This document shows positions 1,715-57,861 of a DNA stretch of 64,000 bases, one piece after another. A model generated the notes under the pieces. It worked only from the letters and a program-made list of their open reading frames with translations. It searched no databases and was not told where the DNA came from. The stretch covers positions 7,440,001 to 7,504,000 of the forward strand of contig OX442314.1 of the NCBI GenBank assembly GCA_949358305.1. The letters are read 5' to 3'. Source of the stretch: Strigamia acuminata. Taxonomy: Eukaryota. Made by a program: the position numbers and the translations under genes. Each line of letters begins with the position of its first letter. Position 1 is the stretch's first letter.

Positions 1715-1768
1715 TGTATCTTATTTAAATCCAAGGTTTATTCTGTAATGACAATTGATGATTGATTA

Positions 1769-6395: not shown

Positions 6396-6737
6396 CGTTG
6401 ACTTTCACCTTTTGGGTTTACCCAAAAGATCCGAGAGAGCAATCTCGTGACGTCATTCGTAGTCCACACTCGAATGACAACGTTCACAATGCGTTATAAT
6501 TTGTGACGTCATTCGGTGTCACCGAAACAAGTTCGTTTCTCCAATCAACGAACTTAGCCACTTTTCCGATAAGTTTTGAAGTGGATGCATCGACTCCGAT
6601 ACAGCACGACAGTTTTTCTTGATTCAGCAAACTGTAAGTAATTTTTCTGAAAGAAAAATTCAATAAATATATTTAATATAATTTATTAATTCTTTCTAGC
6701 CGAAAGAATTTCTTTTTCGACGCGAAAAAGAAGGAAA

Positions 6738-10763: not shown

Positions 10764-10912
10764 TATGGGAATAAAAGTGCATCTTAGAATCGATAAAATA
10801 TGGTAATGCTGTTAATAAATGCCATAATAAAAACTCAGGGTGAAGCTGTGAGGTAAAGAGTGACAATAATAAAAACTAACTTAAATTGAACGCAAAAGCA
10901 CATTACAATTAC

Positions 10913-37384: not shown

Positions 37385-37402
37385 TGGAGGTTCCACCGAG
37401 AT
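37385..37402 (+). promoter_or_regulatory. Primer-binding site, tRNA-Gln
   Basis: TGGAGGTTCCACCGAGAT, 2 nt after the LTR, is complementary to the 3' end of metazoan tRNA-Gln (...ATCTCGGTGGAACCT-CCA). Confidence 0.85.
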
Positions 37403-38855: not shown

Positions 38856-41800
38856 ATGACACATCATCGTAATCTGTTCGACACCCTGAATCAGACGAGA
38901 GATCAGGAAGACGAGAATCAATCGCGGAACCAGCTTACTCCTATAACGGAGGAAAGTGTTGGTTTGCGATGAATTATTTGCGATAATCATATTTGTTGTG
39001 CATTTCCGAGTAGGCACAATAAGCGCGTTACTTCATATATTGGTACGAATGGTCAGCCAGTTGATTCTGCTTTTTAAACTACGCTTGTTTCGTACTCCAG
39101 CTGGCTGTGTCTATGTGATAACGCGCGTCCCGTCGTCTGCTTGTTAAGCGATGATCGTTTAATTTGGTTTGGTATTGTTTATCCATTACTTTAGTCTTTA
39201 CGTTGTATTATTGTAAAGAATAAATCTATTTGGTTATACTAATAGATTTGTTCTCGTTGTTACTCTGTAACCTGAGTTGAGATCAAATAGCCTCAACCCA
39301 GATCACTTGTTTTTATGCTTTCATGGTGAATAAAGATGGCGGTCGCGTGTTGCGAACTAACCGCACTTTATAATCGGTTTGCAAGTTATTTCCGCATGCT
39401 CCAGGTCCAAATACGCTCTTCAAATGGTAGCAGAGGATCGGCGACGACCAGCGCCGGCCAATTTTAGAAGAATTGAAGAGAAACGGACATTTTTCCGACT
39501 ACGAGAAGTCGCAAAGTGCGCGCCCGCCCAATTCGTCGTGAAAACGAATTTTCGGTGCGGCAAACGTCTGGATTACGTGTGCGGACCATTCTGCAAAGGA
39601 ATAGGATTCCAACGGTGTAAGGAATATTTATTTCGAACGATTTAAACTGTATTTTTGCCGATATAACCGGGCTTTCTCGGGCGGCGCCATTTTTGTTGAG
39701 CTTCGCTGCAGAATACGGCGAAGTTAGTGTGTCTACGCGTGTGTACGGACCGGCACACGCACGCCCAACGATTCTACAACGGAATACGTCGACAGGACGG
39801 TATTTTGGAGCGAAGAAACGTCCCAAAACCGTCATTTTTTCGAGAAATCACCGTGAATCGACGATTTTGTTACGGCGGCCATTTTTCGTCAAAAATAGAC
39901 GGAAAAACGACGATTTGATTCACCGAGAAGTCCTGCACACGATAAGCGTGTGTGTGGGCAATTGTTTCCGTATCTCGCACCAGGAAAGCGAGTACGAAGG
40001 CGCAGACGGGCGCTACGACGATTTTCTCCGCGCTTACACGGATGTGTGTACGCGGATTGCACGTCAGCCGATTCCGTGCGAAGACAACGTGAAGCCGACG
40101 TTTAATCCAACGTGGGAACCAGTTACGACGCGTGGAACCCGTAACTGGCCAACTTCACATCAAAAACTGTATTTTTCGAATTTTTCTCGTGAAACTCTGT
40201 TATTTATTAAGGTTTTTGTGTTGGGTCACTTAGAATATTCTGTACCCTTCGGGCAGTCGCCCCAGTACAGTCTCATTCCAGTCTGGGCTTGTCCGTGGCC
40301 AACTAGTCGTCCCGCGTCCCCCAGGTGGGCCGGTCGGAAGCTAGTAGGGCGACCAGATTTGGGTTTTTCATCTCACTTATTGAGGTGCCCCTTGGGAAGT
40401 GTAAAATTATTTCGCCTTCAATTTTTGGGGGCAAATTGCTTCTCCGTGCGACATATTCACGTGTATTGTGAATATTTGTGTTTTTCTTCGGAAATTTTGT
40501 GATTTAGCGATTTGTGCGTCGTTTTTCGTCGAATTTTCTCAACATGGCAAGTTGGGATCGCCGGGACGACTATAAGGACGTGGAAAAATTGAATGGAACG
40601 AACTATTCGACGTGGAGTGTTCAAATCCAACTCCTTTTGCAATCATATGGAGTTTGGGGCCACGTGACTGGCAAGGAGAAGCCCTTGCCAGCCACGGCTT
40701 CTGCAAAAGAAGTTAGGGAGTTTGACAAGCGCGAGGAGAAAGCGCGCTCCACCATTTGTCTGGCTTGTGGAAAAGCCCAACAGGTAGTGGCTGTGGCACA
40801 CGAAGGGGCCAAAGAGGTTTGGGAAGCGCTCAAAGCTGCTTACCAGCCCACTACCAGGGCACGCAAAGCCCGACTTCGTCGCGAATTTCTCATGTTGAAA
40901 CTCCATGAGCAAGAGGAAATGATGGTTTTCCTAGCCAGAGTCGACAGGAAGGCGCTGGAACTGAAAGACGTCAAAATAGACATTTCCGACGAATTCCTGG
41001 CCTTCCAGTACCTGGATCTGCTGCCACATCAATACGAAACGGTCAAGCAGACGGTCTACCACTGGGGAGACCCGGAATTCACCTCGAAGGCCGTCAAAGA
41101 ACGTTTATTAGGCGAATATAATCGCCTCTACGAGCAAACGGATGAATTTGGTGTTTCATTGGGCACAATTGAGAATACGGGTGCCTATTTCACCAAAGGC
41201 AGATGGCAACGTGGCCGGGGGGGAAATGCCCCCAGTTCTCCACGCGTCTGTTACAACTGTGGCGGAACAAATCACTTCGCCCGGGAATGCTCGTCCCCAC
41301 CAAAACAGCAACAAGGTGCTACGAGAGGAAACCCGACAGGACAGTTCAGCAGGGGCAGTCAACGAGGGAAGAGTCGTGGGAAGAGCCAGCAGACGGCCAA
41401 CGTCACGCAAATGGACATTTTTAGCAATTCCCCGGTGTCTTATTTCTCCGCAGCGATTTGCCAAGAACAACCCCCTGTTGTAGTGTCTTTATTGTCGCAT
41501 GCGAACTACGATTCGCAATGGTACGTCGACACAGGTGCGACGGACCACTTTTCGTTCAACAAAACCTGGTTTTCGGACTTTAAACCATTGACTGGTTATT
41601 CTGTTCAACAAGGAGACGGAAAGTCGAAAATTGAAGGCATTGGAAATGTGACTTTAGTTTCGATTAATGGACAACAAACACGTGAACTAACGTTGAAAAA
41701 CGTTTATTACGCACCCAACTTCAAAAAGAATTTGATTTCTTTAGGTCGTACGGATGAAGCTGGGGCGACAACCATTGTGAAAAATGGTAAAATGTTTATT

Positions 41801-44800
41801 TATGATGTGACAATTGATGACCCTTCTATCACTGCGATCCGTACGAGTGATAGGATGTACAAAGTCAATTGTCGCATTAATGCAAAGAATTCTGTAAACA
41901 CTGTTGCATTGTCTGCGCAACAGAGTGCAACGGTGGCATCTAGTCCACCTTTAGCGGGTGAAGAAATTGTTAAATCTTTACTAACACACGTTGATTTTAG
42001 AACCGCATTAACCCAAAATTTGAGTAAATCAGGGAAACCTGTACCTGCGAGAAAGGGGCAAGCGAAAACTGCGAATACTGCGCCAGCGATCGTTGCAAAC
42101 AATGCGAGTATGGAAATTTCGAATCAACAATCGAGTGTTTTGACCGACACACAGTCTAGCTTAGTAGCCAGCAAGGGCAATAAGCCCAAGGATGCGAAAA
42201 TTTTGAGAACAATTGTGCAAAACAATTTAACAAATGGAAATGGGGTTGTAAATGGAAAGAATGCTTCCATTAAACCAGATAAACCCCAAACGATGGACAT
42301 CTGGCACTCTCGTATGGGACACCTTAATGCAAAGGGAATTGCATTGTTAAACAAATCTACTGAAGTGTTTGGTTTGAAGTTGTCCAACACGGAATTGTCG
42401 AGTTGTGATGCTTGTTCGATGGCGAAAAGCACACGTGCCAGTTTTCCCCCCATTGCGACCATTTCGACCAAAGGGATTTTAGAAATTGTCCATTTAGACG
42501 TGTGGGGCCCTTCACCAGTTAGGAGCATAGGTGGGGCGTACTACTATTTGGTCATGGTCGATGACTTCTCACGATTGATGTGGATCGTGATTATGAAGAA
42601 AAAGAGCGAAGTTTTGGGCCATTTTAAGAAGTGGTTAACCGAAATTGAAAGAACGACTTCTAGGAAAGTCAAGTCGATCAAAACTGACAATGGAGGGGAA
42701 TTCGTATCCAAACAATGGGATGAATATGCCGGTAGCATTGGGCTGAAGTGTATGCGGACGAACGCATACAGCCCTGAGATGAACTCCATCGCTGAAAGAA
42801 CGAACCGTACCATTCTCGGTGGAATTAGAGCTTTAATGATTGAAAATAGTCTTCCTTCATCCCTGTGGGCAGAACTCGCAGTTTCTGTCGTTTACTTAAA
42901 GAACCGGTTTCCGCATGCGGGATTGGGTGGGAGGACACCTTATAATGTGTTTTTCAACAAGAAATTATCCCTACGACATGTCAAATGCATTGGTGCTTTG
43001 ACTTATGTGCATATCCCTTCGCAGACAAGGGCTGGGAAGTTACAAGAGAGAGCATGGGCGGGGGCCTTAGTTGGATATGCCTCTTCCACCCGTGGTTATC
43101 GGATTTGGGATCCGAACAAAAACCAAGTTTTTCTCTCAAAACACGTTAAAATTTTGGAACAGAATTTCTGGTACGAGAAAGTAAAGAATCCCCAATCTGG
43201 CCCATCACCTGCTACTGACGATTCAGATTTATCAGGCGAAGAGTCTTGTAATGACTCTGACACAGACAGTGTTTATAGCGAACCTATCCCCGAGGAAGAG
43301 GTCAAAGTGGTTGAAAAACTCGTGGAGAGACCCATTCAGGCCAGACCACCTGGGGGACCCGACTATGTAGATGCCATGCAATACATCATTGGAGATATAC
43401 ATGGCCTAAATTTTGATGAAATCGGTGGGGCGAAGGGGGATGATAGGGATTTCTTCAATATTTATCCCGACGACGATGAAGGAGAAGTTGAAGAGGAAGT
43501 TGAGGACCCAGATGCAAGCCCTCAATTGTCGCCCCAATCGTCACCCACACCCCCTCGTCGGAACCCGCCTAGAAAAGGGAAAGACACTGGCGAACGCACA
43601 GCTTCAACGAGTGACTTGTTGCCTCTAGATATGACTTTGTGGCAAAGACGGCAGACTGTACGTCAAAGCGGGGCAACAGCTGGGAAAGTTGATGTTTGGT
43701 ACATCACACCAAAGCACGAGAAGCTCCGCAGCCGTGTTGAGGTTGTCCGTTGGTGCAAAGCCGAGGGATATGAATATAAATCGGAATTGTTTAACTTCAA
43801 AGATGTGACTATCGGTTTTGCTGGTTGCTGCTCTGTCGAGCCGGACACGTACGAAGAAGCGGTCAAAGGCGCCAGCAAACCTGATTGGGAAAACGCGATG
43901 GAAGACGAAATAAATATCTTCAAAGAGCGTGAGGTTTATGTCGAAGTCGACAAAGACCAAGTTAAAGACAAAACCTTATTGGGATCAAAATGGATATACA
44001 AGTTAAAAAGGGATCACACGGGTACGATTAGAAGATATCGTGCTCGTCTCGTTGCACAAGGCTTCAAGCAGAAGCCAGGCATTGACTTTACTGAGGTATT
44101 TTCCCCAGTAGTCAATTTTGTGTTAGTCATGATGTTCTTCTGTGTCTTAGTGGTACTGAGGGGCTGGCGTGACGTACACCTTGACATTAAGGCCGCATAC
44201 CTATATGGGGACCTCGACGAAGTGCAATATATCCACATCCCAAAAGGATATCGAACGACTGAAAACCAACACAAATGTTGGGAATTGAGAAAGTCTCTTT
44301 ACGGGCTTCATCAGTCTGGTCGTATGTGGTACCAGCGACTCCACGACCAGCTGATTGAAATTGGATTTGAACCGGTCTTGGGTCTCAATTGCGTGTATAG
44401 CTTGGGCACTGACGCTATACTTATTTTCTATGTCGATGACATTGTATTGTTTTCAAAAGACAACATAGCAGAGGAGTGCGTTTTGGATTGGATTCAACAA
44501 TCATTTGAGATTGTCAATTTGGGCCCCGTCACCCTTTTGTTAGGGATAGAGTTTTGTAGGGACGGGGAGAATATCTTTATTCATCAGCGCGCTTATATTG
44601 CAAAGTTGTGTAAGCAATATGGGATTGACTCTTGTCATCGAGTTAGAGTGCCTGGCACCCCGGGCACCATGATCCAAAAGGTTCAGACGGGGGAACGTGT
44701 CAATTCGAGTTTTCCGTATCGGTCTCTTGTCGGCAGTTTGCTTTTCATCGCAAGTCGTACAAGACCCGATATTTTGTTTTCGGTGATAGTGTTGTCTCAA

Positions 44801-47800
44801 TACAACGAGACTCACTCGACTCGACACGTGAACATGCTGCTCCAAATCCTGCGATACTTGGGGAACACGCCAAATTTCTCTATCAACTTGGGAAACTGCC
44901 AAAGCGAAAATTTGACCGTTTATACGGATGCGTCCTTCGCATTAGACCAGGACAAACGTCGAAGCTTTGGTGGGCACATCATCTACCTGGGAGGTGTCCC
45001 AATCTCATGGAACTGCCATAAGCAGACCATTACAGCACTTTCCATTATGGAAAGCGAATTTTTGGCGGTGGTCGATGGTGTAAAGGAGATAATTTGGTTG
45101 GAGCGCATATTTGGTGCGGATGTGATGATGGATGGGCTCAACCGGGAAATACCATGTGTTTACGCTGATTCAATGCCAGCGATCCAATATGCGAAGAATC
45201 GCATAGAAAATCGCGCAAACAAACATATTGACGTTAAGTTGCATTTCGTGCGCGACTGGTTTGAAAAAGGTGTTTTTCGAATCAGACATATCCCGGGAAC
45301 CCTTAATGTAGCCGACCTTATGACCAAGTGGCTATCTCGCGCAAAACTAGATGCATTGTGCGAGCATATTTTTGTAGCGGCAAAGTAGTTCATCGAAGGG
45401 GGATTTGTTGGTTTGCGATGAATTATTTGCGATAATCATATTTGTTGTGCATTTCCGAGTAGGCACAATAAGCGCGTTACTTCATATATTGGTACGAATG
45501 GTCAGCCAGTTGATTCTGCTTTTTAAACTACGCTTGTTTCGTACTCCAACTGGCTGTGTCTATGTGATAACGCGCGTCCCGTTGTCTGCTTGTTAAGCGA
45601 TGATCGTTTAATTTGGTTTGGTATTGTTTATCCATTACTTTAGTCTTTACGTTGTATTATTGTAAAGAATAAATCTATTTGGTTATACTAATAGATTTGT
45701 TCTCGTTGTTACTCTGTAACCTGAGTTGAGATCAAATAGCCTCAACCCAGATCACTTGTTTTTATGCTTTCATGGTGAATAAAGATGGCGGTCGCGTGTT
45801 GCGAACTAACCGCACTTTATAATCGGTTTGCAAGTTATTTCCGCATGCTCCAGGTCCAAATACGCTCTTCAGAAAGCACGCAGTACGACGCCGACGAGGA
45901 TTTGCGGGCGTATTGTCGCCACTTCAACTTAGATGTACGTTTCTTCGGTTCGCTGACCGAAGCCAAACAGTATATGGCTCGCAATCAACAGCCGGGAGGT
46001 TCGTCCGACCGTTCCGGCCGATCAGCGGACGAGTTGGAACTGAACCGCGGAGGTATCAACGGAGGGCCGCCGGCAACTTACGAGAAGTCGCGTGACCTGC
46101 CACCCGCTCCACCTCCATTACGAGTCGTTAATCCTACTTCTCCAAGTAAGGAACAAACGACGGAACCAAGTGCATCGACTCCAAAGTCAGATGAACCCCT
46201 ACTGGTTGAGCGTACGGACAACGTACAACGACCATCTGTAGTGGACAAAGTCGCGAGCGAGTCGCAGACCATCGTCCTTGAACGGCGTAACCAACAGCCT
46301 ATTCCTGCACTCCCGCCAGTGTTGGAACAGGAAATTCCGCCGAGGAGAGTTGTTTATCCACCTAAACATCCCTCCGAAGCCATACGACGTTTCCAACAAG
46401 AAATTAGGGATCAAACCTCAACGTTGAAAACCCCTGTTGATTTCAAGGCACAGCAGGAATTTCCGACTAGAAAATTTCCGGCCGATCCGATCGAACGCTT
46501 CCAACAACGAGTTCGCGACGAAGTACGAGATGTGGACCCAAATCCAATTCAACCTCATACACATTTCGAGTCACCGCGAAGAAGGCCGAACTTGCCTGCC
46601 TTGCGTCGGGAGAAGTCGCCGTCGCCAATTATTCCCCGTGCTCAAATAGGATATGAGGAATTTCGGCCAAATTACGAAGATTATCGGACGAATCACGGGT
46701 ATAACTTCCCCAGCCAGGGGAGATTCCGTCGTTCCTCGCCACCGCGACCAGATGAGTTTCAACGCTCATATTCGCCACCTCCTGCAAGGGGGAGTCGAAG
46801 AAATGAACCCCGTCCACCCCAGCCAGGGGGACAAGGGGGACAAGGAGGGCAAGGGGGACATCACGCCGATAATCCCAACTTGCTCCCTCCCGGTTATTTT
46901 CAACGTTCATATTCTCCACCGCCACGGAGGGGAAACAGCGCGAGTAGCACTGCTCCCACCCTGTCGCAAGACGACATGAACTTACTAGTTCAGAGATTGT
47001 CGGGAAATGTGCGAAATACCCAATCGCAACCGCAACCAAATAGGAAATTCATCTGTAAAGGAATAGAAATCCCAGCTTTTGAAGGAAAGCAGGAAGACGT
47101 GTCAAGATTTTTGGAAGTCGTGAAATCAGTTTCAATGTTACGAGAAATAACATTGGACAACATGGTACATGAAATCATTCCAGGTTATTTACTGGGCCAT
47201 GCGCAAACATGGTTCAAACAAGAGAAACGACGTTTCACAAGTTGGGAAATTTTCGAGGACGCTTTTCTAAGACGTTTCGATCTCGTCCCGCTCACGCGAG
47301 CAAGACGACTGAAAAACGTAATCCAGAGAGCTGACGAAAGCTTATATGATTTTCTGTTGCGTTTTTCCAAAGCGCAAGGGAAAATTGCACCCGGAAGCAG
47401 AGAAGGTATAGACCACCTGTTCGATAATGTAACTGATGAAAGCTTTATGTTATTGATGAACAAGGACCTGTACGGTGAAAGTACAGTCGAAGAAATCATT
47501 TATTTCGTGGGAAAACATCGCTGTATGTTTGAAAACAAAAAGCAACATTCGGCGCGTCTCGAGTTTGACAACAGCGAATTCCCAACATCCAATGCCTCGA
47601 CAAAGGCAAAAGATAACAAATTCGCATCTAAACCATCACTCAAGAGTTCCACTGTCGGTTATGAACCAAATACCCAAGTGGAAAGTGACATTGAAGTTGA
47701 TAGTGGAGACGAAGAATCGATGGAGACCATCTATATTAACCACATGGAGACCAAGTCCGGGAAGTGTTTTTACTGTTATGAAACAGGGCACTTCAAACGG

Positions 47801-48067
47801 GAATGCCCGAAATGGCTAAATAAGAATAAAGCAGATTCCGCAAATAAACGTCCGGCGAGCTCACAAGCTACGCCCGATGATGTAAAACGGCCTAGACCTA
47901 ACTGGGTTACGACCGAACTTCTGGACAAGAAACTAGGCGATTTACAATCAACATTGCAGTCGTCTCTTCAAAAGTCCCTTCACAGCTCAGTTACCGATCT
48001 ACTTACAAAATTCTTGAAAGCTCCTACAAGCTCGACAGAAAAAGCAGAGGAGTCAAAAAACTGTTAA
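38856..48067 (+). CDS. gag: Gypsy B gag, interrupted near codon 34 by the Copia insertion (38856-38956 + 45877-48067)
   Basis: Removing the Copia and one TSD restores MTHHRN..TPITEES-TQYDADE in frame. Capsid-like IPAFEG..FL..LLGHAQTWF..WEIFEDAFL; zinc knuckle CFYCYETGHFKREC. Confidence 0.9.
39425..39438 (+). promoter_or_regulatory. Primer-binding site, initiator tRNA-Met
   Basis: TGGTAGCAGAGGAT is complementary to the 3' end of metazoan tRNAi-Met. Confidence 0.88.
40544..45388 (+). CDS. Copia gag-pol polyprotein (gag, zinc knuckle, PR, IN, MBD, RT, RNase H), 1614 aa from the first ATG
   Basis: KLNGTNYSTW; CYNCGGTNHFAREC; WYVDTGATDH; WHSRMGH..CDAC; HLDVWGP..TDNGGEF..AERTN; YRARLVAQG; FYVDD; YTDAS..KHIDVK..ADLMTK. 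Confidence 0.97.
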   Translation: MASWDRRDDYKDVEKLNGTNYSTWSVQIQLLLQSYGVWGHVTGKEKPLPATASAKEVREFDKREEKARSTICLACGKAQQVVAVAHEGAKEVWEALKAAYQPTTRARKARLRREFLMLKLHEQEEMMVFLARVDRKALELKDVKIDISDEFLAFQYLDLLPHQYETVKQTVYHWGDPEFTSKAVKERLLGEYNRLYEQTDEFGVSLGTIENTGAYFTKGRWQRGRGGNAPSSPRVCYNCGGTNHFARECSSPPKQQQGATRGNPTGQFSRGSQRGKSRGKSQQTANVTQMDIFSNSPVSYFSAAICQEQPPVVVSLLSHANYDSQWYVDTGATDHFSFNKTWFSDFKPLTGYSVQQGDGKSKIEGIGNVTLVSINGQQTRELTLKNVYYAPNFKKNLISLGRTDEAGATTIVKNGKMFIYDVTIDDPSITAIRTSDRMYKVNCRINAKNSVNTVALSAQQSATVASSPPLAGEEIVKSLLTHVDFRTALTQNLSKSGKPVPARKGQAKTANTAPAIVANNASMEISNQQSSVLTDTQSSLVASKGNKPKDAKILRTIVQNNLTNGNGVVNGKNASIKPDKPQTMDIWHSRMGHLNAKGIALLNKSTEVFGLKLSNTELSSCDACSMAKSTRASFPPIATISTKGILEIVHLDVWGPSPVRSIGGAYYYLVMVDDFSRLMWIVIMKKKSEVLGHFKKWLTEIERTTSRKVKSIKTDNGGEFVSKQWDEYAGSIGLKCMRTNAYSPEMNSIAERTNRTILGGIRALMIENSLPSSLWAELAVSVVYLKNRFPHAGLGGRTPYNVFFNKKLSLRHVKCIGALTYVHIPSQTRAGKLQERAWAGALVGYASSTRGYRIWDPNKNQVFLSKHVKILEQNFWYEKVKNPQSGPSPATDDSDLSGEESCNDSDTDSVYSEPIPEEEVKVVEKLVERPIQARPPGGPDYVDAMQYIIGDIHGLNFDEIGGAKGDDRDFFNIYPDDDEGEVEEEVEDPDASPQLSPQSSPTPPRRNPPRKGKDTGERTASTSDLLPLDMTLWQRRQTVRQSGATAGKVDVWYITPKHEKLRSRVEVVRWCKAEGYEYKSELFNFKDVTIGFAGCCSVEPDTYEEAVKGASKPDWENAMEDEINIFKEREVYVEVDKDQVKDKTLLGSKWIYKLKRDHTGTIRRYRARLVAQGFKQKPGIDFTEVFSPVVNFVLVMMFFCVLVVLRGWRDVHLDIKAAYLYGDLDEVQYIHIPKGYRTTENQHKCWELRKSLYGLHQSGRMWYQRLHDQLIEIGFEPVLGLNCVYSLGTDAILIFYVDDIVLFSKDNIAEECVLDWIQQSFEIVNLGPVTLLLGIEFCRDGENIFIHQRAYIAKLCKQYGIDSCHRVRVPGTPGTMIQKVQTGERVNSSFPYRSLVGSLLFIASRTRPDILFSVIVLSQYNETHSTRHVNMLLQILRYLGNTPNFSINLGNCQSENLTVYTDASFALDQDKRRSFGGHIIYLGGVPISWNCHKQTITALSIMESEFLAVVDGVKEIIWLERIFGADVMMDGLNREIPCVYADSMPAIQYAKNRIENRANKHIDVKLHFVRDWFEKGVFRIRHIPGTLNVADLMTKWLSRAKLDALCEHIFVAAK
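43613..43803 (+). other. Methyl-CpG-binding domain between the Copia integrase and RT
   Basis: WQRRQTVRQSGATAGKVDVWYITPKHEKLRSRVEVVRW..LFNF aligns by eye to the MBD2/3 consensus GWKxEEVIRKSGLSAGKSDVYYxSPSGKKFRSKPQLARY..FDF. Confidence 0.9.
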
Positions 48068-48096
48068 GGGGGGTTGAACCAACCATTTCAGCCCCC
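48055..48096 (+). promoter_or_regulatory. -1 programmed ribosomal frameshift signal (gag-pol)
   Basis: A_AAA_AAC in the gag frame, a 7-nt spacer, then the stem GGGGGTTGAA/TTCAGCCCCC. The -1 frame is open into pol. Confidence 0.85.
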
Positions 48097-51000
48097 ATTA
48101 AAACAGACCCATTCGATTTCTCGGAATTTTCAGATGATTTATTTGAATTATCTGGAAAGGATCAGAAACCCCCACCAATTGAACTTGCAACCCAATTAAA
48201 TAAGGAACTATTCAAGTGGGACGACTTGAACCTTGATTTAATTCCTACAACGGAACGCGCCAACAGTAATACTGGTGGCGTGAGGGAAGGAATCGATTCA
48301 ATGACGAAACAATTGGAGGGACTCAGCATCTTCAACCACGGTGGAAAATGGAACGTGAAGAAGTTCAGTAACCTTCGACGTTTAGACCAACGCGGAGTTA
48401 CGGAATTTGTAAAAACACTGACTGACCGACATTCTGACGACCCTCGTATGAGAGTTCAGATTGGAGGTTTGAAGTTCAATGCTCTAATGGACTCTGGTGC
48501 AACCCAGTGTTTCATTGGAATGCAACTTCTATCTCAAACCAATGCAGAACCCGATTATATCCAAGAATGTCCTCGGGGAATGCGAGTTTGTGCAGTAGGA
48601 ATTAGTCACGTACCACTTGGACAAATTACACTTTGTGTCAAGTGGGCAGGCGGACTAAAATATACACCAATCAACTTTATTATCCTGAAACATGGAGTAT
48701 GTGATCTTATCATTGGTCACAACTTCATGCGACGCGCCGGAATTGACCTGAGAGCTAAAAGAGGATCATTCACATGCGATTCCATGCCTGGATGGTCGGC
48801 TCCCTACGAAACTAGAGAGTCCGACTGTGAATTGGCACGTATCCGTACACTCGATGCTAATGGCGCCGAGACTCACACGCCTGCTGATTGGGCTGAAAAG
48901 CTTGTCGCAGACTGTGATAGTACGGACGAACGTAAGGACCAACTAAAAGCTGTCATTTTAGCAATAAAAGACGTTTTTAGGGACAAAGTAGGTTGCACCA
49001 ACTTAGCCAAGCATAAAATCACTTTGAAAAAAGATGCGAAATGGCGAATCCAACCTTATCGAATGTACAACCCGGCCAAGAAGGCCATAATGACGGAGTT
49101 AGTCGAGGAGTTGGAGGCCGATGATCTAATCGAGCCTGCAACTGGCCCGTACATCAGTCATCCTGTGATAGTAGCCAAACCAAACGGCAAATACCGTTTG
49201 TGTATTGACTACCGTTGGCTTAACGCCATTTCAATACTCGACACAATACAAATGCCTAGTATCGACCTGTTAATCCACAGTACGAATAAGGCCAAGTATT
49301 TCACATCATTGGATTTAACTCAGGGATATCATCAGATGGAAATGGAAGAGGAAGACAAGTGTAAAACTGCTTTCTACACACCGAAGGGAAATTATCAATT
49401 TAAAAGGATGCCCTTCGGTTTGTGCAACGCACCCTGTTCCTTCCAGAACTTGATGAGCAGAGTGATGGGTGACTCGCTGCATAAGCATGTCCTCGTCTAC
49501 TTGGATGATTTGATCATCTTCTCCCACTCCTGGAAAGAACACTTGGACCACATAAAGGACGTGTTAGAAAAGCTCCAAAAAGCTAATTTAACTATCAACA
49601 AAGCCAAATCAAAATTTGGAAGAACTTCACTAAAGTTCTTGGGTCATTATATCACACCGGAAGGTTTGAATGCTGACCCCGACAAAATCAAGTCAGTCAA
49701 GGAATTCCCCGAACCCACCTGTTCAAAGGATATACAGAGGTTTCATGGTCTGTCCAATTTCTTTAGGAAGTTTATTCCTAATCATGCGGATATCGCTAGA
49801 CCACTCACCTCAATCATGCATAAAAATGCTGCTTTTGTGTGGGGCAAGGAACAGAAAGAGGCATTTGCAAAAATCAAAGAGATTTTGTGCGATAAAAACC
49901 AAGTTCTACATATGCCTGATATGTCAAAACCTATGGTAGTAATGACTGACGCGTCCCATACAGGGCTCGGTGCAGTTCTCTGCCAGGATGTCGAGGTGTT
50001 TAACGAAAAAACACAGAAAATGATGATGGTCCCAAAACCCGTTGCTTATGCGAGCCGAGTTTTACGAGGGGCTGAAGAACGTTATTCCACTCCCGAACTG
50101 GAATGTTTGGCAGTTGTGTGGGCAGTTGATCGCTTCCGCCCATACTTGGAATACACGACGTTCACGCTGGAGTCGGATGCGCAAGCGTTGGGTTGGCTAA
50201 TGAGAACGCCAGAACCATCCGGCCGATTTGGTCGCTGGGCAGTGAAAATCCAGTGCGGAGCATTCAAGATTGTGTTCAGAAAAGGCGCCCTGAACCAGGT
50301 AGCCGACGCTCTATCAAGAGCGCCGTTATCTGCAATGGATACGCCTATTACCGATTACATTGAGCCGGTAGAAATTAACCAATTCTATCCTCTATGGACC
50401 GGTAATAAGAAGACTCAAGTCATTCCAGTTGAAGGACGACGTCACTTTCTAACAAATGTGAATATTCGTTTTAACGATTTCTCCGAATTAAATGAAGAAA
50501 ATTCAAATAATTCTGGAGAAAAGGGGGAAGTGAATGAGAAAGGCAAAACGAAACATCAAACAACAGTATTTAGTGCATTAACCGATGTACTAAATCAAGT
50601 TCCCCCAACCCGAGCTGAAATAATCGCAGAACAATTATTGGATGATGATTGTAAAAAGATTATGGCCCACTTGAAGTTAAGTGAGGAAGACCAAGAATTA
50701 GAGACAGATCTAGACTGGCTAAATACCATAGCTGGATACTGTTTGGATGAAAGTGGGGAGGACGGCAGTAAAATGCTCATTTTCTTTCGTCCCACCTTTG
50801 AAGAGGAGTTGAACGACTCCGGAAATGGGTTTAAGGCCGTGATCCCTAAATCTCTTGTAAGAAGAGCTTTATTTGCCTGTCACGGCCACCCCCTTTGTGG
50901 ACATGCAGGTATGAGCAAGACTCTGGAAAGAGCAAAGCTCATTTATTACTGGCCAAAGATGACTAGGGATACGCGCAACTATGTCCGTGGTTGCCCGCAT

Positions 51001-52320
51001 TGCCAGCAGTACAAGCCAAGCCAGCACCGAAAACATCGAGCGGCTTACACGCCGCATAATATGACGAATCCATGGGAAACCGTGAGTATCGACTTGATGG
51101 GCCCCAAGCCCGCTGGTCGATCGAAGTTACAATGGATATTAGTGATAATAGACCATTGCACCAAATGGGTTGAAGTATTCGCGTTGACAAAGGCCTCTAG
51201 CGAGAGCATTGTCAACAAGATGAGTGACGTTTTTCATCGTTGGGGTTACCCCAAAAAGATATTGTCGGATAATGGAAGACAATTCGTGTCCACCGTCTAT
51301 AGTGATTTTTGTAAAAAACATCACATAGACATGGCACATGTCAGCCCCTATCATGCCTCGGCTAACCCGACAGAAAGGGCTAACCGTGACTTGAAGATGA
51401 TGCTGGCAATTTATTCTGATGTGCACTCTCACTGGCCACGATTCTTGAACGAATTCGCGTTTGCCACGAGAACGGCCATCTCAGATGCAACTGGATTTAG
51501 CCCAATGATGCTGAACACGGGTAGAACGGTACCACTACCATTCGATCCACGTATAGTGGAACACGGGGTAAAGTTTGATAAAAACAAACCCGAAGAATAC
51601 GTACATGGCATTCTGGATGTGCTTAGAAGAGCACATCAAGAAATGCACCGGAAAATCCAGGAGAATTATGTCCGACATGACAAGATTCACCGCAACAAAT
51701 ATCACATTTGTCAGTATGCTGTTGGCGATCTAGTCTGGAAAGCTACACATATTTTGTCAAATAAAGAAAAGGGAATCACCGCTGGTTTCGCCGAAAAGCG
51801 AGACGGCCCCTGGGAAATCACAGCAGTATTAAAAGGAGGCTCGTATTCATTACGAAAAGTTGCCGATGGATCAATTGAGAAATCAATTAATATCCAGGAT
51901 TTGTCACCTTATATCCCGTCATTTCCGGTTGAAGCTTGGTCGGAAAACCAAACTGAAGGCAGTGAGGGGATTCATCCAACCCCAAATTGGATGGACGAAC
52001 ACTTCCCTGTCTCGCAACAGACAGAAGAAGATGTTGTCCCTATGGAAACGGAGGATACAGTCGAAAACGATACCCTCCAACCCACAGACGAGGCAGTCGA
52101 GGAAGTTATCGAAAATAACGAACTCGAACATATAAAACGCCGAAATAAAAAATTATTACGAGCTGAAAGACGTTCTAAAAGAACTCCTAAGCCTAATCGA
52201 CAATTTAGCGATGATTTCGTGCAAAAAATGCAGGAATTAAATATTTCGGAAAAGAATATTTATTTCACAAAGCATGCACACCTCTACTTTGAAGAGACGA
52301 CTCATCCATGCTATTTTTAA
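48055..52320 (+). CDS. pol: Gypsy B pol (PR, RT, RNase H, integrase), intact
   Basis: ALMDSGAT; RLCIDYR, MPFGL, YLDD; MTDAS..ELECL; HGHPLCGH..CPHC; SIDLMGP..SDNGRQF..TERAN; DGPW. Confidence 0.97.
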   Translation, partial: KKLLRGVEPTISAPIKTDPFDFSEFSDDLFELSGKDQKPPPIELATQLNKELFKWDDLNLDLIPTTERANSNTGGVREGIDSMTKQLEGLSIFNHGGKWNVKKFSNLRRLDQRGVTEFVKTLTDRHSDDPRMRVQIGGLKFNALMDSGATQCFIGMQLLSQTNAEPDYIQECPRGMRVCAVGISHVPLGQITLCVKWAGGLKYTPINFIILKHGVCDLIIGHNFMRRAGIDLRAKRGSFTCDSMPGWSAPYETRESDCELARIRTLDANGAETHTPADWAEKLVADCDSTDERKDQLKAVILAIKDVFRDKVGCTNLAKHKITLKKDAKWRIQPYRMYNPAKKAIMTELVEELEADDLIEPATGPYISHPVIVAKPNGKYRLCIDYRWLNAISILDTIQMPSIDLLIHSTNKAKYFTSLDLTQGYHQMEMEEEDKCKTAFYTPKGNYQFKRMPFGLCNAPCSFQNLMSRVMGDSLHKHVLVYLDDLIIFSHSWKEHLDHIKDVLEKLQKANLTINKAKSKFGRTSLKFLGHYITPEGLNADPDKIKSVKEFPEPTCSKDIQRFHGLSNFFRKFIPNHADIARPLTSIMHKNAAFVWGKEQKEAFAKIKEILCDKNQVLHMPDMSKPMVVMTDASHTGLGAVLCQDVEVFNEKTQKMMMVPKPVAYASRVLRGAEERYSTPELECLAVVWAVDRFRPYLEYTTFTLESDAQALGWLMRTPEPSGRFGRWAVKIQCGAFKIVFRKGALNQVADALSRAPLSAMDTPITDYIEPVEINQFYPLWTGNKKTQVIPVEGRRHFLTNVNIRFNDFSELNEENSNNSGEKGEVNEKGKTKHQTTVFSALTDVLNQVPPTRAEIIAEQLLDDDCKKIMAHLKLSEEDQELETDLDWLNTIAGYCLDESGEDGSKMLIFFRPTFEEELNDSGNGFKAVIPKSLVRRALFACHGHPLCGHAGMSKTLERAKLIYYWPKMTRDTRNYVRGCPHCQQYKPSQHRKHRAAYTPHNMTNPWETVSIDLMGPKPAGRSKLQWILVIIDHCTKWVEVFALTKASSESIVNKMSDVFHRWGYPKKILSDNGRQFVSTVYSDFCKKHHIDMAHVSPYHASANPTERANRDLKMMLAIYSDVHSHWPRFLNEFAFATRTAISDATGFSPMMLNTGRTVPLPFDPRIVEHGVKFDKNKPEEYVHGILDVLRRAHQEMHRKIQENYVRHDKIHRNKYHICQYAVGDLVWKATHILSNKEKGITAGFAEKRDGPWEITAVLKGGSYSLRKVADGSIEKSINIQDLSPYIPSFPVEAWSENQTEGSEGIHPTPNWMDEHFPVSQQTEEDVVPMETEDTVENDTLQPTDEAVEEVIENNELEHIKRRNKKLLRAERRSKRTPKPNRQFSDDFVQKMQELNISEKNIYFTKHAHLYFEETTHPCYF

Positions 52321-52848
52321 AACAAGATAGTGTAAATGAGTCATCAACCAATCACAGAGCTCGGTCTAAAAAATAGACACCTGCTTTGAGGTTGACCTGT
52401 GAACTCACTCTCGTTAGTTCCACTACAGCTGACACATCGCTTAACAATTGGTCATCTCGTGAAGTTTTCTGTCAACGCGAAAAATCGGGTAAATTGTGAG
52501 TGAACTAATTTACACGAGTCTCGAAAAAGACAACTTTTATTCGGTTTTATTTTAGTTAAGAGGTTTGCCCAAACTTCGTAGCTAAACCACGTGGGTTTAG
52601 GCCCGGAAAACTTCGTCTCGTCGAATTTATTCGACAGTCACCGACACCGGACGTTAATAAACGCTCTTGTTTGGACAAACAACGAGGTTTTTTCGTAAGT
52701 TAAATTTATTCAACGATAAATTTAATTAATATTTCCGGAGTTTTAAAATTTAACCGAATTTTAATAGGAAATTTCGTACGGACAACATTAATTACGTCAG
52801 CAAAGAAAACGTCAATTTTTCCACGGATTTACGAGCAAAGATTCAACA

Positions 52849-55429
52849 ATGAGTGGTAAAGTGTTATTTTTGTATGATAAAATATTCAAATACACCGCCA
52901 TTAACTCGAGAAGTTATCTAGAAAGATAAAACTCGCCAAGTCATGTTATAAAGTACAGGAAGTTCTCACTAGAGGGTGTTCGCCACCCTTTGAACACGTA
53001 TCAGGAATCCAGTATCTGAATTATCGTCTTTTAATCGATTAAATTAAATTGTTAAATTTATTAGTCGGTTAAAGGACAATATTTATGATATTACGGACCT
53101 TTCCGAAAAAGGAAAATACGTAAATTAAGCTGTTCAATGTTCGATTTAAATATTTAAACTCAACCGTTTAAAAGTATTTGATTGTTCAGTGTTTCGCAAT
53201 AATGACGGACAGGGCATTAGACAAAGTAATTCACCTTACTTCGCTAATTAACATCCCAATGAGAATAATCGAGAAGAACGAATTGATATATTTACCTCAA
53301 AATAAATATATCAACGTTTAGGCGGTTTATTTGAATTGATGTATTTATTTTACGATAAATACATTAATTATCGGTGACTTGTTGGTATTTATATGTTTAT
53401 GTCACGATAAATATATTAAGTATCGGCAATTCATCTGGATTAGGTTATTTTTCGATAACTTTAATTCATTTGATGTGATTTCTCGAATTTAGGAAAGGAT
53501 CGAGGGCCACGTAGGTCACCTAATAAACGTCGCCACGTCCATTACGATCACTCGTCGACGTCAGGCGATTCAAGTCCCGACCGCGGTAGGCCGCCCCGAA
53601 ACGAGGAGACTTCCAGGTCTGATGGCTTTCAAGCTGTATTGGACTGGGCCAAGGCACGAGGAAAGGAGTTACCCGACTACCTGAGGAAATTGTTAAAGTC
53701 TGCCGAGTCAGCGGGAACCTATTCTTCCGGCAGAGAATGTGCTCAGGCCATAATGGATTGGGCCAAAGCGAGGGGAAAAGAATTGCCCGACTACCTGAAG
53801 AAGTTAGTGAAATCAGCGGAAGCTACGGGAACGTCCTCAAAGGAAAACACGCTTCAAGTCACGATTAGAGACGAGTCCTGGAATCGGCCTTCCACTTCTG
53901 CGTCTCATTCCTCGCACTCCAGGGAGAGAAGCAGCCGCCATGTTCGTAGTGACAATCACCCGTACCGTCCGCATTTCCATTCTGAGAATGAACCACCACG
54001 TCCGTTGACTGAACAGCCACGAGTGGTCTATCATTACTCGTCGCAAAAGCCAGCTCGAACCAATACGAGTTCCAACTGGACGGAATATCGACCAACCCAG
54101 TATCGCAGCAGCCATGTCACTCAGAAAAAGAGAGAGACGAAAGCAGCAGCAAAGCCAGTTCCAGCCAAAACCACGCCGATCCTCCCTAAAGAAAAATTGG
54201 ACGCAGCCACCACCGCAATCGTAAAGGAACTGAAGAAGGCCGCACCAATCGAGGGCACCAAAGCAGAGCGCAGAGAAATTGTGGAAAAGGCCGTTAACGT
54301 CATTCTTCCAAAATGTCGTCTCCCTTACGATGAACGTGTGGAGGTTACGTGCCCGTTTTGCAATGGCGGAGGCTGGGCGATAGGAATCGTGCAAGGATGT
54401 CATGCAATGCTGTGCCCGAATTGTTCCGGGTGGAAAATTCGTGAGAAAATCTCGCCGTGGAATGACAATGTCCTGCCTTACGTGGTGATGGGGACCTCGC
54501 AGCCTGGACCCCGTATATGGTCCACCTGCGACCCCTGTCAAGTGATTCACTCCCATTTAGGAGAGGTGATCCTAGTAGACCCACGGTTCATCGTAGACAA
54601 TCACCGACCCGGCGGTTACGAGGTTACCACTTGGACTCAGGACGAGGTCCGGATGCTCGCCAATTTAAGCTTAAAAGCTAAAAAGGCAAATGAAGAATTG
54701 GAAGTGAAGCAAGCGGCACAACTGGCGATGACTCCGGTCACCGAGGCAACGATCCAATGCGGAGCCACTCAACCAACTGAGACGTCCAAGACCCCCACAC
54801 CGGTGGAGTCTCCCAAGACGATCACACCTCCACCAGGCCCACCAGCTAAGAAGTTGCCGGCATTAAAATCGGTTGTGACGGCGTATCCTTTCGTGGTTCC
54901 GGCAGGCATCACAAATGAACACGCGGCCGAGTGCGAGATTGATCACTACACTCCCATCATCAGGGAAGCCGCCTTGGACATTTTCCGACGATTGAACCAG
55001 AAGCGCAACGTTTATTACCAGTTGCCCATTTTAGTTATGAGATGGATAATGAACCCGTTGCGTACCGAGCCCTTCCCTGTGTTGGAACACATATGGGCGC
55101 GTTTGCTCGAACGTGTGAGCCAACTTCCCGCCGCCATCCATATCCGCGCAGATTGGAGTGTCGAGCTACCAACGGCTGAAGAGGTGTTCAAGCAAGAACG
55201 ACAAGCCAGGGACCCACCAATTGTTAGCTTGCGCCCGTTACCCGACGGATTTGCCGCCAGAATTGGTCGACCAAGTACGTCGAGAGGAATTTCCCCGAGT
55301 GTAGAGACCCCGCTGCCGAGAAGTTCGTCGGAGGACTCGACCAAACTTATCATTGACGAGAGCGCCGACCCTGAAGCAAGCCAGAAGGACGGGGAAAAGG
55401 AAGATGGTCGCCAGAGCCCCGTCATCTAA
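52849..55429 (+). CDS. Gypsy B ORF3, predicted spliced (52849-52855 + 53493-55429), ~647 aa, unknown function, Cys-cluster protein
   Basis: caacaATGAGTG|gtaaag ... gaatttag|GAAAG gives MSGKDRGPRRSP in frame with the 596-aa ORF. Contains a duplicated DWAKARGKELPDYL.KL.KSAE and CPFC..CPNC..CDPC. No signal peptide or TM segment. Confidence 0.72.
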
Positions 55430-56150
55430 AAAGAGAAGTTACGTCCACGCAACACGTCGTGTCGGACGATATTCGTCAAGTTGAGTTTTTTAGCCTGTTC
55501 AGGCGATCAAAACAATTGTTCTACGAGATCGTGTTGTGTCCATTCCTACTAAAACGAACTAATTGTTAAAAAACTTATGGTTCTCCACCGTAATGTGCAA
55601 CTAAAGAGTTGATACATTTCTTAAACCGAACTAATTTTTGTAATGAAACTTTTTTTCGTGTTGTTTTCTACAGCCCAGAGGGGTGAATAATTTGAAGAGT
55701 TTGTTTTTTCAATTTAAGTTGAACAAAATAATTTAACTGTGATACTTTATTTTTTCATTTTAACAAATGTGACTTTAATCTTTGTAACCCGAAAATTTTA
55801 TTGATACAGATAACATTATATTATTTAACGATAATTTATGTGTGTTTATTTTTCAAGAAATTAACAAGTTTTGAAAGAATAAATAGAAAAACTTTCGTTT
55901 GAACATTTAATAATTTGGTGATTATTAAAGACTATTTCGGAGTTTAACGTGATGAATAAGTCCTGATGAACTATTATATATTTTCGTACGAGGATATATA
56001 ATATACGAGATGAACTATTAAAATTATATACGGAAAAATATAAATTTCATTAGTTAGTACATGCGTTAGTTGACCCTAACTGAAGAAGATTTGTCATATA
56101 TCGCAGTGAAGACGAATCAAGAGGGAATATTTTAAGATATGCCCCTTGAT

Positions 56151-56160
56151 AAGGGGGATG
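56151..56160 (+). promoter_or_regulatory. Polypurine tract of Gypsy B
   Basis: aagggggatg directly before the 3' LTR; same ending as the Gypsy A PPT. Confidence 0.85.
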
Positions 56161-57861
56161 TATGACGAACACGGTATTGTTTATGCGATATCATGCCAAA
56201 TCCCACCGATAGATGGCGCTGACGTCAATAAGCGGCAAATTCGAATAGAATTTGTCACTTGATGTAAAACCACATAAAATATAACTTTTATGTGATTTTA
56301 AGACAGAGAATCGACTTTATCTTATATTTATGGAAATAAATACAGATATTATGTTGTTTTGTGGTAACTCTGCAAAGTTACCTCAAAAACTAGGTTTAGG
56401 GGATTAAATCTCCCCCTCGCACCTGCTCCAAGCGTGGACCCCCGCGGATCAAGTTGAAAGACTTAATCCAAAAGTGTTCCTCGCTATCCAGTTCCTGTCC
56501 CGACCTAGCAGAGAGCTATGGCCTGAGTATCCAGTTCCTGTTGACCACCTGGACTGGAAATGTGCTCTGAGTATCCCATCACCTGGACCAGTGATTGGGG
56601 GGATTTGCAGGACCATTGCTCTCATTGGAGCAATGGCCAAGCTATTGTTTTCCCCGAGTATATACTTCCTCGCAACAGGAAGTAGCTCGCTCTTGACCAG
56701 ATATTTGACTATATGTTTTCTTGAGCCCATTCTACTACTCCGGTTGTCATGTTGATTGCGCAGACACTTGCTTGTCTGTTGATTGCGCAGTCAATGCCCC
56801 TTATACTGCGGGCCTATGACAACCTACATACGGCGTACACTTGACGTGGAGATGGGTGATATGATGCCTCCATGTCCGGGTGCCCGATGACGGCTGTGTG
56901 GCCGTGAGGAGATCAGGTCGCGGCGATGAGTAGTAAGAATCCCGTCGGGCCGGATATAATTCAACAAGTGTTCCACAAGGCCTGCCAGTTACAGTAAACC
57001 ACGGCTGCCGAACAGCGTGTCGAAAATGTAACATTAGGGTTGAAATAACTAAACTCGGAAAAGTTTAGTTAGATTAAATCCCCAGCTAGTTTATGTCACA
57101 ACTCAACATTGTGCATAAACACGGATACTTCTTCCAGAACTGTACAAAACTGAAGACTAGCTACATTAGCATTTACTTGCCAGTAAATGTGTAGCTAAAT
57201 TGCCAACTTTATGTAAGCAGAATTATTACGAGTATTTACTGAATAAGTAATACTCTAATAAATACATCCATTACACGGAACCAGAAGTTATGATTGTAAA
57301 CTTGCAACAGTTTACTCTCGTATGAAGAACCATTTGACGTATCACACCAATTATAGATGTCTTAAAACATCTATAAGAGGTCAATTGGTAAATGGCTCTC
57401 ACAAGCCATTTAAACCAATAACCGCCCCAAGTTTGTGGCGATGCAGATACAGTCAACCGGAAGTCCTCGGATACTAACCCTTTCATTACAGATTCGAACC
57501 AGGACCAAATAATCAACCGATTCAGACGACATCTTACCAGGACGAAGCCGATTGATATTATTATAGCGCCGCACAGGCAACTATATGTATAGTTTAATCG
57601 AGAATTCCTTTGGCCATTTGTCGGCATAGTTATTGTGTAACTATATTTTATGCAAATTGATTAATATAATCACTTTACGGTGATTATATTTAGATATCAA
57701 TAAATATGTTATGTCTTGATAACCGCATGTGTCATTATTTTACCCAGTTCACACTTTAGGTTTTGTCAATCCTATCTCTCAACTACTGAATAGATAGACT
57801 AGCTTGTTATGCCAAAATACACATTTTGAGCGGATAGCGTCATCGAAAGGTCATCGTCACA
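56161..57861 (+). repeat. Gypsy B 3' LTR
   Basis: Direct repeat of 35682-37382. Confidence 0.95.

What the first reader, a model, noticed from the sequence alone, without database searches (positions are those of the whole stretch)
52321..55429. Gypsy B has the same spliced ORF3 slot but a different cargo protein: candidate swappable accessory-gene system
Seen: pol A and pol B share lineage-specific motifs (PPTRxxIIAxQ, HGHPLxGH, LVWxxxHILSNxxKGIxAG..KRxGP) and the same PPT ending. Both have short UTR introns (B: gtgagt ~52496 to ttttag ~52555; gtaagt ~52696 to taatag ~52768), a tiny ATG exon, an AT-rich intron and one large exon. Yet the two ORF3 proteins show no similarity I can see. ORF3-B has a duplicated ~22-aa helical motif (DWAKARGKELPDYL.KL.KSAE), a CPFC-x17-CPNC pair plus CDPC..H.H (possible zinc finger) and a helical C-terminal block. 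Inference: a Gypsy clade with a conserved expression cassette and rapidly evolving or exchanged cargo, as expected in a host-TE conflict.
Basis: partly seen in the sequence, partly recalled or inferred. Interest (0 to 1): 0.82.

Follow-up and report, generated by a model that had tools for sequence, protein, structure and literature searches.

The report
Centipede Gypsy's spliced zinc-ribbon accessory gene
A retrotransposon, likely from a centipede, carries an extra non-envelope gene that is conserved in its close relatives, likely spliced, and predicted to encode a zinc-binding protein that would help the element's own unspliced RNA leave the nucleus; a distant sister element has a different-looking gene in the same place, but swapping is not shown.

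Summary
Gypsy B (35682-57861, identical 1701-bp LTRs) has an open third frame after pol with in-frame splice signals, a duplicated 22-aa motif and three CxxC motifs. It is not an orphan. Three Strigamia maritima gene models (one family) carry a homolog behind a B-type pol: 35-40% identity over a 133-aa core, all six Cys kept, and no other hit among 1.84 billion representatives. So ORF3-B travels with its pol lineage. A and B lie on one integrase branch (100/99) but are only 35% identical, about three times further apart than B and Strigamia; at that distance no similarity is expected even without a swap. ORF3-A does lack every CxxC. ORF3-B is not Env or sORF2 (no membrane segment). New here: the last predicted introns of both cassettes fold strongly (z -7, -8), B's carries a repeated hairpin with covarying stems, and the last acceptors match 9/10. 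Best reading: a Rev/CERV-like regulator of the element's unspliced RNA (about 0.4). Splicing, expression, fold and function are untested: no RNA run was listed and the models are poor.

The parts
35682..37382 (+). Gypsy B 5' LTR (1701 bp), 4-bp TSD ACGT outside
   Evidence: 100% identical to 56161-57861; TSD read
37385..37402 (+). Primer-binding site (complement of tRNA-Gln is recalled, not tested)
37429..38595 (+). Candidate 5'UTR intron: donor 47 nt after the LTR, acceptor at 38595; structured, with four U-G-closed NNNC hairpins in the UTR
   Evidence: (z -6.9); splicing inferred
38856..38956 (+). Start of gag B, cut off by the nested Copia
38957..45871 (+). Nested Copia (466-bp LTRs, TSD GAAAG) with an MBD in pol; breaks gag in this copy
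   Evidence: (PF01429 E 2.7e-10)
45872..48067 (+). Rest of gag B (Retrotrans_gag, CCHC knuckle)
47902..52320 (+). pol B: PR-RT-RH-IN, overlapping gag in another frame
52496..52555 (+). Predicted UTR intron 1 of the ORF3 cassette (GTGAGT..TTTTAG)
   Evidence: sequence; not shown spliced
52695..52767 (+). Predicted UTR intron 2 (GTAAGT..TAATAG); holds one copy of the repeated hairpin (52706-52719)
52849..52855 (+). Predicted first coding piece of ORF3-B (ATG plus 4 nt)
   Evidence: in phase with the large exon
52856..53492 (+). Predicted 637-nt AT-rich intron
53274..53460 (+). Array of 3-4 about 52-nt RNA hairpins just upstream of the acceptor
   Evidence: (z -7.2)
53493..55429 (+). Large exon of ORF3-B
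53629..53832 (+). Duplicated helical motif; no BLASTP match in the Strigamia homologs
54227..54625 (+). Conserved core: helix plus CxxC-x17-CxxC-x34-CxxC-x3-H, predicted zinc-binding
   Evidence: 35-40% identity to P0002, P0017, P0028; Anti-TRAP zinc ribbon below cut-off
54872..55189 (+). Second conserved block, predicted mainly helical
   Evidence: 24% to P0002, pairwise E 3e-6; pLDDT about 50-65
55430..56160 (+). 3' non-coding region with a fifth hairpin-motif copy (55821-55834) and the PPT (about 56150-56160)
56161..57861 (+). Gypsy B 3' LTR
3788..6395 (+). Gypsy A pol fragment (RH-IN), 5'-truncated
6634..7102 (+). A cassette: short intron signals 6634-6699, ATG 6738, donor 6828, structured 275-nt predicted intron, acceptor 7102
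   Evidence: z -8.1
7103..9388 (+). Large exon of ORF3-A (761 codons, no CxxC, no homolog found)

Best explanation
ORF3-B is a lineage-conserved, non-envelope accessory gene of a likely centipede Gypsy group, likely made from a spliced RNA, whose predicted zinc-binding protein would act like Rev or CERV by binding hairpins in the element's own introns so that unspliced genomic RNA survives and is exported. Shown: the open frame, its conservation behind B-type pol in a second family, the six kept cysteines, the lack of a membrane segment, and folding and repetition of the intronic hairpins in silico. Inferred: splicing, nuclear location, zinc and RNA binding, export. ORF3-A likely fills the same slot by descent of the cassette; its protein has diverged past recognition and lost or never had the zinc module, so no swap is needed to explain it.
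For: Real and conserved. Frame open by chance about 1e-12. Homologs P0017 and P0028 are the only 2 hits among 1.84 billion representatives (E 7e-25, 1e-20), and with P0002 they sit in gene models fused to pol 43-60% identical to pol B. 4 of 5 changed codons listed from two public runs are silent, against 0.30 expected (P 0.03). Not env: maximum 19-residue hydropathy 1.33, no furin motif, no Pfam family above cut-off. RNA side: last predicted introns fold at z -7.2 (B) and -8.1 (A), while 0 of 12 windows of the ORF3-B exon and 1 of 43 flanking windows fall below -4. B's array favours the sense strand (-67.4 against -40.9 kcal/mol), and 6 of 16 pairs change on both sides among 5 copies. The cap motif occurs 5 times, all sense and all in B's 3' non-coding DNA (0.20 expected). 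U-G-closed NNNC hairpins occur 4 times in the 5'UTR and 4 in the cassette (shuffles 0.24 and 0.19, 0 of 100 as high) and 0 times in 17 kb of flanking DNA. Logic (inference): an element with identical LTRs that still holds these intron signals went through an RNA copy that kept them. Precedent: CERV of C. elegans Cer1, a spliced Gypsy accessory protein with a possible C4 zinc loop, is required for gRNA export (PMC10309623).
Against: No splice junction has been seen, so the introns are predictions. No sequence or fold link to CERV, Rev or any RNA-binding family: models have pLDDT 41-47. No leucine-type NES pattern in ORF3-B. CERV shares exons with gag, whereas this ORF lies after pol. Structure is not confined to the cassette: 3 of 20 pol windows and 3 of 10 5'UTR windows also fall below z -4, but 0 of 7 evenly spaced cassette windows do. 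The best windows were picked from a scan of 55, and the hairpin motifs were defined after seeing them. Intron-borne hairpins fit a Gag packaging signal equally well. A's intron shows little strand bias (-82.6 against -77.1) and has none of B's motif. Co-inheritance rests on one independent family: the three Strigamia models are near copies.
Confidence: 0.4

Rival explanations
1. One reading: the cassette is a conserved expression slot whose coding exon has been replaced, so ORF3-A and ORF3-B are non-homologous cargo.
For: No similarity by BLASTP, hhalign or profile. ORF3-A has no CxxC, although all six Cys are kept between B and Strigamia. Intron phase differs (0 against 1) while the acceptors match 9/10. 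Repeated, independent gain of ORF3 types is documented in bdelloid Gypsy elements (PMC5408684 section 3.3).
Against: ORF3-B follows B-type pol in the one testable family. The A-B distance predicts only 7-9% residual identity. No ORF3-A homolog was found among 218 fetched proteins, so its history is unknown. Two elements cannot show repeated exchange.
Confidence: 0.3
2. ORF3-B is an anti-silencing or chromatin factor that protects the element from DNA methylation or piRNA silencing; the hairpins are a packaging signal or unrelated.
For: Strigamia methylates silent transposons, and CopiaMBD prefers methylated LTR elements (PMC6673714 passages); one such Copia sits in gag B. ORF3 evolves faster than integrase (35-40% and 24% against 53-60%). 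Basic, low-complexity, non-membrane protein. The VANC analogy is recalled, not tested.
Against: No chromatin domain found. A nested CopiaMBD would rather suggest that this copy was methylated. Fast evolution is common to all accessory genes.
Confidence: 0.2
3. ORF3-B is a transcriptional or translational trans-activator (Tat or Tas-like), or an accessory for particle assembly and transport.
For: Cys-rich domain plus basic and Pro/Ser-rich stretches. A carries two TGACGTCA sites after pol, a hint of an internal promoter.
Against: No direct evidence; it does not explain why intron signals persist.
Confidence: 0.15
4. The ORF is a captured, neutrally decaying passenger that is not spliced or expressed.
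For: No transcript seen; this copy has a broken gag.
Against: Conserved Cys pattern and two blocks in a second family, a 651-codon open frame, and mostly silent listed differences.
Confidence: 0.05

Closest known systems
CERV of C. elegans Cer1 (PMC10309623; abstract and three sections read)
   Same: Gypsy/Ty3 element; accessory protein of similar size (517 aa) from a spliced RNA; lineage-restricted and divergent; structured domains between flexible linkers, one with a cysteine loop; the element must export RNA that keeps splice sites.
   Different: cerv shares its first exons with gag, while ORF3-B lies after pol. No sequence or structural link was found. The function of ORF3-B is untested.
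Retroviral Rev, Rex, Rem and Rej with their response elements (PMC3856414; passages)
   Same: An element-encoded factor from spliced RNA plus a structured RNA in the intron-containing genome.
   Different: Those are vertebrate retroviruses with small proteins carrying a CRM1 export signal; none was detected in ORF3-B.
Variable ORF3s of bdelloid Vesta, Juno and TelKA elements (PMC5408684; abstract, sections 3.1 and 3.3)
   Same: Family-specific non-env ORF3 after pol, with different types in one clade.
   Different: Those are recognisable enzymes (GDSL, DEDDy) or env; ORF3-A and ORF3-B match none, and exchange is not shown here.
Errantivirus env and MDG1-group sORF2 (PMC13524379 and 10.1101/2025.03.14.642691; passages)
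   Same: Same position after pol; env's spliced expression from a small ATG exon is recalled.
   Different: No membrane segment, no furin site, about 650 aa, Cys pattern of zinc-ribbon type.
Plant additional ORFs between pol and the 3' LTR (PMC7264820; passages)
   Same: Conserved extra ORFs of unknown function, some nuclear, with retroviral-accessory roles proposed.
   Different: Plant lineages, often antisense; no homology found.
Strigamia maritima gene models T1IRW1, T1IMA5, T1IH97 (P0002, P0017, P0028)
   Same: True homologs of ORF3-B, fused by the annotation to B-type pol.
   Different: Annotated only as polymerase or retropepsin; no BLASTP match to the duplicated motif.

Membership tests
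Ty3/Gypsy LTR retrotransposon (element B) | gag with CCHC, then PR-RT-RH-IN | tested here: met
Ty3/Gypsy LTR retrotransposon (element B) | LTRs, PBS, PPT, TSD | tested here: met
   the tRNA identity of the PBS is recalled
Env (errantivirus or other) | Hydrophobic signal and transmembrane anchor, furin site | tested here: not met
   Maximum KD19 1.33 (B) and 0.88 (A); no RxK/RR in B. Hydropathy only; no dedicated signal-peptide predictor was run.
Env (errantivirus or other) | Profile match to a known env or fusion family | tested here: not met
   Pfam: none at E<=1
sORF2/FAST-like | 60-210 aa with a single transmembrane helix | tested here: not met
   651 and 761 codons, no TM; criteria
Bdelloid-type enzymatic ORF3 (GDSL, DEDDy) | Recognisable esterase or exonuclease domain | tested here: not met
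CERV | Made from a spliced element mRNA | tested here: inconclusive
   In-phase splice signals; no RNA data
CERV | Cysteine loop with invariant Cys | tested here: inconclusive
   Six Cys kept in 4 of 4 rows; not compared with CERV's own sequence, which no tool supplied
CERV | Sequence or fold homology to the H, M, G domains | tested here: inconclusive
   No nematode hit; models too poor
CERV | First exons shared with gag | tested here: inconclusive
   The model has its own ATG after pol; the true 5' exon is unknown
CERV | Self-association of the Cys domain | not tested
CERV / Rev-like exporters | Nuclear, binds gRNA, needed for export | not testable with these tools
   Needs cells
Rev-like exporters | Structured cis element in intron-containing RNA | tested here: inconclusive
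   Structured, repeated hairpins found; partner unknown; no Rfam match at E<=0.5
DnaJ/Anti-TRAP-type zinc ribbon | Two CxxCxGxG-like repeats above the Pfam cut-off | tested here: inconclusive
   Anti-TRAP 19.6 bits against cut-off 32; DnaJ_CXXCXGXG E 1.6
Swappable-cargo system | ORF3 type incongruent with the pol tree | tested here: inconclusive
   One independent family pair, and it is congruent; no ORF3-A relative found
CopiaMBD (nested element) | MBD inside the Copia pol | tested here: met
   family described in PMC6673714

The most novel reading that the evidence does not exclude
A centipede Gypsy clade has evolved matched protein-RNA pairs, like Rev/RRE and Rex/RxRE: one inherited spliced slot holds unrelated regulators in different lineages, each reading its own intronic hairpin code (U-G-closed NNNC loops in B, a different set in A) to export its genome. 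ORF3-B would be a new zinc-binding RNA-export protein family.
Probability: 0.15. Interest if true: 0.82.

Novelty: new variant of a known kind. Interest (0 to 1): 0.55.

Why it matters
How env-less Gypsy elements with splice sites export unspliced RNA is largely open; CERV was the only retrotransposon-encoded exporter that my searches returned. A conserved, apparently undescribed accessory protein next to a discrete, repeated RNA hairpin gives a concrete protein-RNA pair to test. The A/B pair allows a cross-specificity test. Even if the function differs, ORF3-B defines a new protein family with a predicted zinc-binding core in a host group that methylates its transposons.

Tried and rejected
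No whole genome is held, so copies could not be collected. The word-index search with ORF3-B was blank (7994 candidates) although homologs exist at 27-40%, so it is insensitive here. ESM Atlas was blank for ORF3-B 235-420 and for ORF3-A. Sequencing runs: 2 listed, no RNA holder listed, which is no evidence on expression. Their contigs run through the predicted intron; none of the 13 listed joints is a predicted splice joint. Summed contig depth was lower over ORF3 than over gag-pol (about 2-5k against 14-32k in X1), and one contig joins 52360 to 56008 (25 letters on the short side). The tool says depth cannot rank parts and short joints are unreliable, so neither was used; an ORF3-less or differently loaded subfamily stays open. 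Metagenome scans: 591 pattern hits and no ORF3 relative; 6 loci at 27-40% to integrase, too distant and not studied. Viral contigs: 58 pattern hits, none confirmed. AlphaFold with 4 rows gave pLDDT 41.5 and 47.3. Foldseek on PDB and BFVD gave nothing at E<=0.001; VIA best Z 4.8. PDB sequence search gave only integrase hits from the fused rows. A 28-column helix match between the B profile and ORF3-A was rejected (94 of 500 shuffles as good). BLASTN of the two non-coding cassettes found only AT-rich noise (best E 0.03). Rfam was blank. Three look-ups of earlier findings were empty. Trees: of 218 fetched proteins, 184 aligned over 270 or more integrase residues, 26 near-duplicates were dropped and the top 70 used; the careful tree used 23 of them; P0017, P0028, P0101 and P0102 were left out as partial. 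Variant count: 31 of the 40 listed differences were coding and were classified; 547 more were not shown by the tool.
Full report
Setting. Element B is a complete Gypsy, 35682-57861, with 1701-bp LTRs that are 100% identical, a 4-bp TSD, a PBS and a PPT. Pfam gives gag with a CCHC knuckle and PR-RT-RH-IN. A Copia with an MBD in pol (E 2.7e-10) is inserted in gag at 38957-45871, so this copy is broken there. Element A is a fragment that starts at 3788 within pol. The host is not given. The closest named relatives of pol B are all Strigamia maritima models (48-60% over the integrase region), and MBD-bearing Copia is described from Strigamia and spiders (PMC6673714 passages). A centipede host is therefore inferred.

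The observation. All named features are present. ORF3-B is open for 651 codons, with chance about 1e-12. The predicted ATG piece and large exon are in phase across a 637-nt AT-rich gap, and A has the same layout with a 90-nt first coding exon, phase 0 and a 275-nt gap. The last acceptors share 9 of 10 bases; among 321 pyrimidine-AG sites in similar AT/T-rich context on both strands only these 2 match that well. I noticed this after looking at several landmarks, so it is a fair hint of common origin, not proof. Splicing was not observed: no RNA run was listed.

ORF3-B is a conserved family. The word search missed it, but three pol hits (P0002, P0017, P0028) are fused gene models whose tails are ORF3-B homologs. 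phmmer over 1.84 billion representatives returned only 2 hits, P0017 and P0028. The core (ORF residues 252-384) is 35-40% identical and keeps all six cysteines of CxxC-x17-CxxC-x34-CxxC; the following His is kept in 2 of the 3 models. A second block is 24% identical to P0002. The duplicated motif has no BLASTP match in them. The three models are near copies, so this is one independent family. Of the 40 differences listed from two public runs, 6 fall in 5 ORF3-B codons, 4 of them silent (expected fraction 0.30, P 0.03); pol had 9 of 11 silent and gag 4 of 13. 547 rows were not shown, so this is weak support. The protein has no membrane segment and no furin site and no Pfam family above cut-off; the only hints are zinc ribbons (Anti-TRAP E 0.001). 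Models were poor (pLDDT 41.5, 47.3) and fold searches were uninformative.

Is the cargo swapped? pol A and pol B are 35% identical over 846 aa. Integrase trees put A, B, the Strigamia models and P0003 on one branch (SH-aLRT 99 with 72 rows; 100/99 with 25 rows; midpoint root), with A the first and longest branch. A-B is about 3.1 times the distance from B to the Strigamia family. A crude Poisson extrapolation of the ORF3 blocks gives 7-9% identity at that distance, so the missing similarity does not tell swap from drift. Against free swapping: ORF3-B goes with B-type pol in the one testable family. For replacement or module loss: ORF3-A has no CxxC at all and another intron phase. A search with pol A (137 hits, 120 listed) gave no model with an ORF3-A-like tail, and ORF3-A hit none of 218 fetched proteins at E<=1. 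The question stays open; I put replacement at about 0.3.

New element: structured introns. A scan of 55 non-coding windows of B led to a hairpin array at 53274-53460, just upstream of the acceptor. It folds at -67.4 kcal/mol, z -7.2, against -40.9 on the other strand. Five aligned copies pair in 82.5% of cells, with 6 of 16 pairs changed on both sides (3-6 of 500 shuffles as high on four of five measures, 86 of 500 on the fifth); the structure was drawn from these same copies. The cap motif occurs 5 times in the window, all on the sense strand in B's 3' non-coding DNA (0.20 expected); four copies defined the pattern and the fifth, at 55821, pairs only weakly. A looser one-mismatch form was reached by 2 of 100 shuffles. 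U-G-closed NNNC tetraloop hairpins occur 4 times in the 5'UTR and 4 times in the cassette (0 of 100 shuffles as high), 0 times in 17 kb of flanking DNA and 0 times in A's cassette; gag-pol has 3 on the sense and 4 on the antisense strand. One contig of run X1 goes back from 53418 to 53322, which would be extra hairpin units. A's last predicted intron also folds (z -8.1) but with other hairpins and little strand bias. Controls limit the claim: pol B has 3 of 20 windows below z -4, the 5'UTR 3 of 10, evenly spaced cassette windows 0 of 7, the ORF3-B exon 0 of 12 and flanking DNA 1 of 43. Rfam has no match.

Mechanism. If the introns are real, an element that has just transposed (identical LTRs) and still holds them must export RNA that escaped splicing (inference). 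Complex retroviruses use Rev-like proteins and structured response elements (PMC3856414 passages). The C. elegans Gypsy Cer1 uses CERV, a spliced, lineage-restricted protein with a cysteine loop that is required for gRNA export (PMC10309623; abstract, Background, one Results and one Discussion section). ORF3-B has a comparable build and lies beside an element-specific intronic hairpin array, so I commit to a CERV/Rev-like role at about 0.4. The steps from splicing to export are all inferred. The hairpins could be a Gag packaging signal, no export-signal pattern was found, and no homology to CERV was shown. Rivals are anti-silencing (0.2), trans-activation or assembly (0.15) and neutral passenger (0.05). 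Cargo replacement (0.3) concerns history and can combine with any of them.

Known versus new. Non-env ORF3s that vary within a Gypsy clade are known from bdelloids (PMC5408684; abstract, sections 3.1 and 3.3) and plants (PMC7264820 passages). Env and sORF2 are excluded. Eight full-text searches showed no description of this centipede ORF3 in their listings. PMC13524379 names Chilopoda only among the genomes searched, and PMC12440569 concerns another lineage. No supplements were read, and Repbase and Dfam could not be searched, so the families may be catalogued there. Verdict: a real feature, a new variant of a known kind, interest 0.55.

Noticed in passing
window 38957-45871: Intact-looking Copia with an MBD between integrase and RT, nested in gag of Gypsy B; matches the described CopiaMBD and its preference for LTR elements.
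   Followed up: partly
window 59323-64000 against 43706-48383: 99.98% identical copy of the Copia end and gag B after a 200-N gap; likely an assembly duplicate.
   Followed up: partly
window 1-3787 against 11631-15417; 10882-12176 against 25737-27002: Duplicated DEG/ENaC (ASC, PF00858) gene pieces on the minus strand; element A begins exactly where the first duplicate ends.
   Followed up: no
window 15477-16819: Foldback-like element with 431-nt arms, 98% complementary, 481 nt apart; further inverted-repeat elements at 18308-18879 and 33478-34116.
   Followed up: no
window 37429-38595: Possible 1.2-kb intron in the 5'UTR of B with repeated T-rich/A-rich hairpins; its donor could also serve the ORF3 cassette.
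   Followed up: partly
window 52360-56008: One X1 contig skips the whole ORF3 cassette (short side 25 letters), and contig depth is lower over ORF3; a weak hint of ORF3-less relatives.
   Followed up: partly
window 6447-6520: Two TGACGTCA sites, each followed by TTCG, after pol A; possible internal promoter.
   Followed up: no
protein P0102: Strigamia gene model that joins a B-type RNase H region to an A-type integrase piece (56% to pol A), so the A lineage likely exists in that species too.
   Followed up: partly
window 34021-34720, 26697-27128, 32714-33043: Minisatellite arrays with 20-, 18- and 26-nt units.
   Followed up: no
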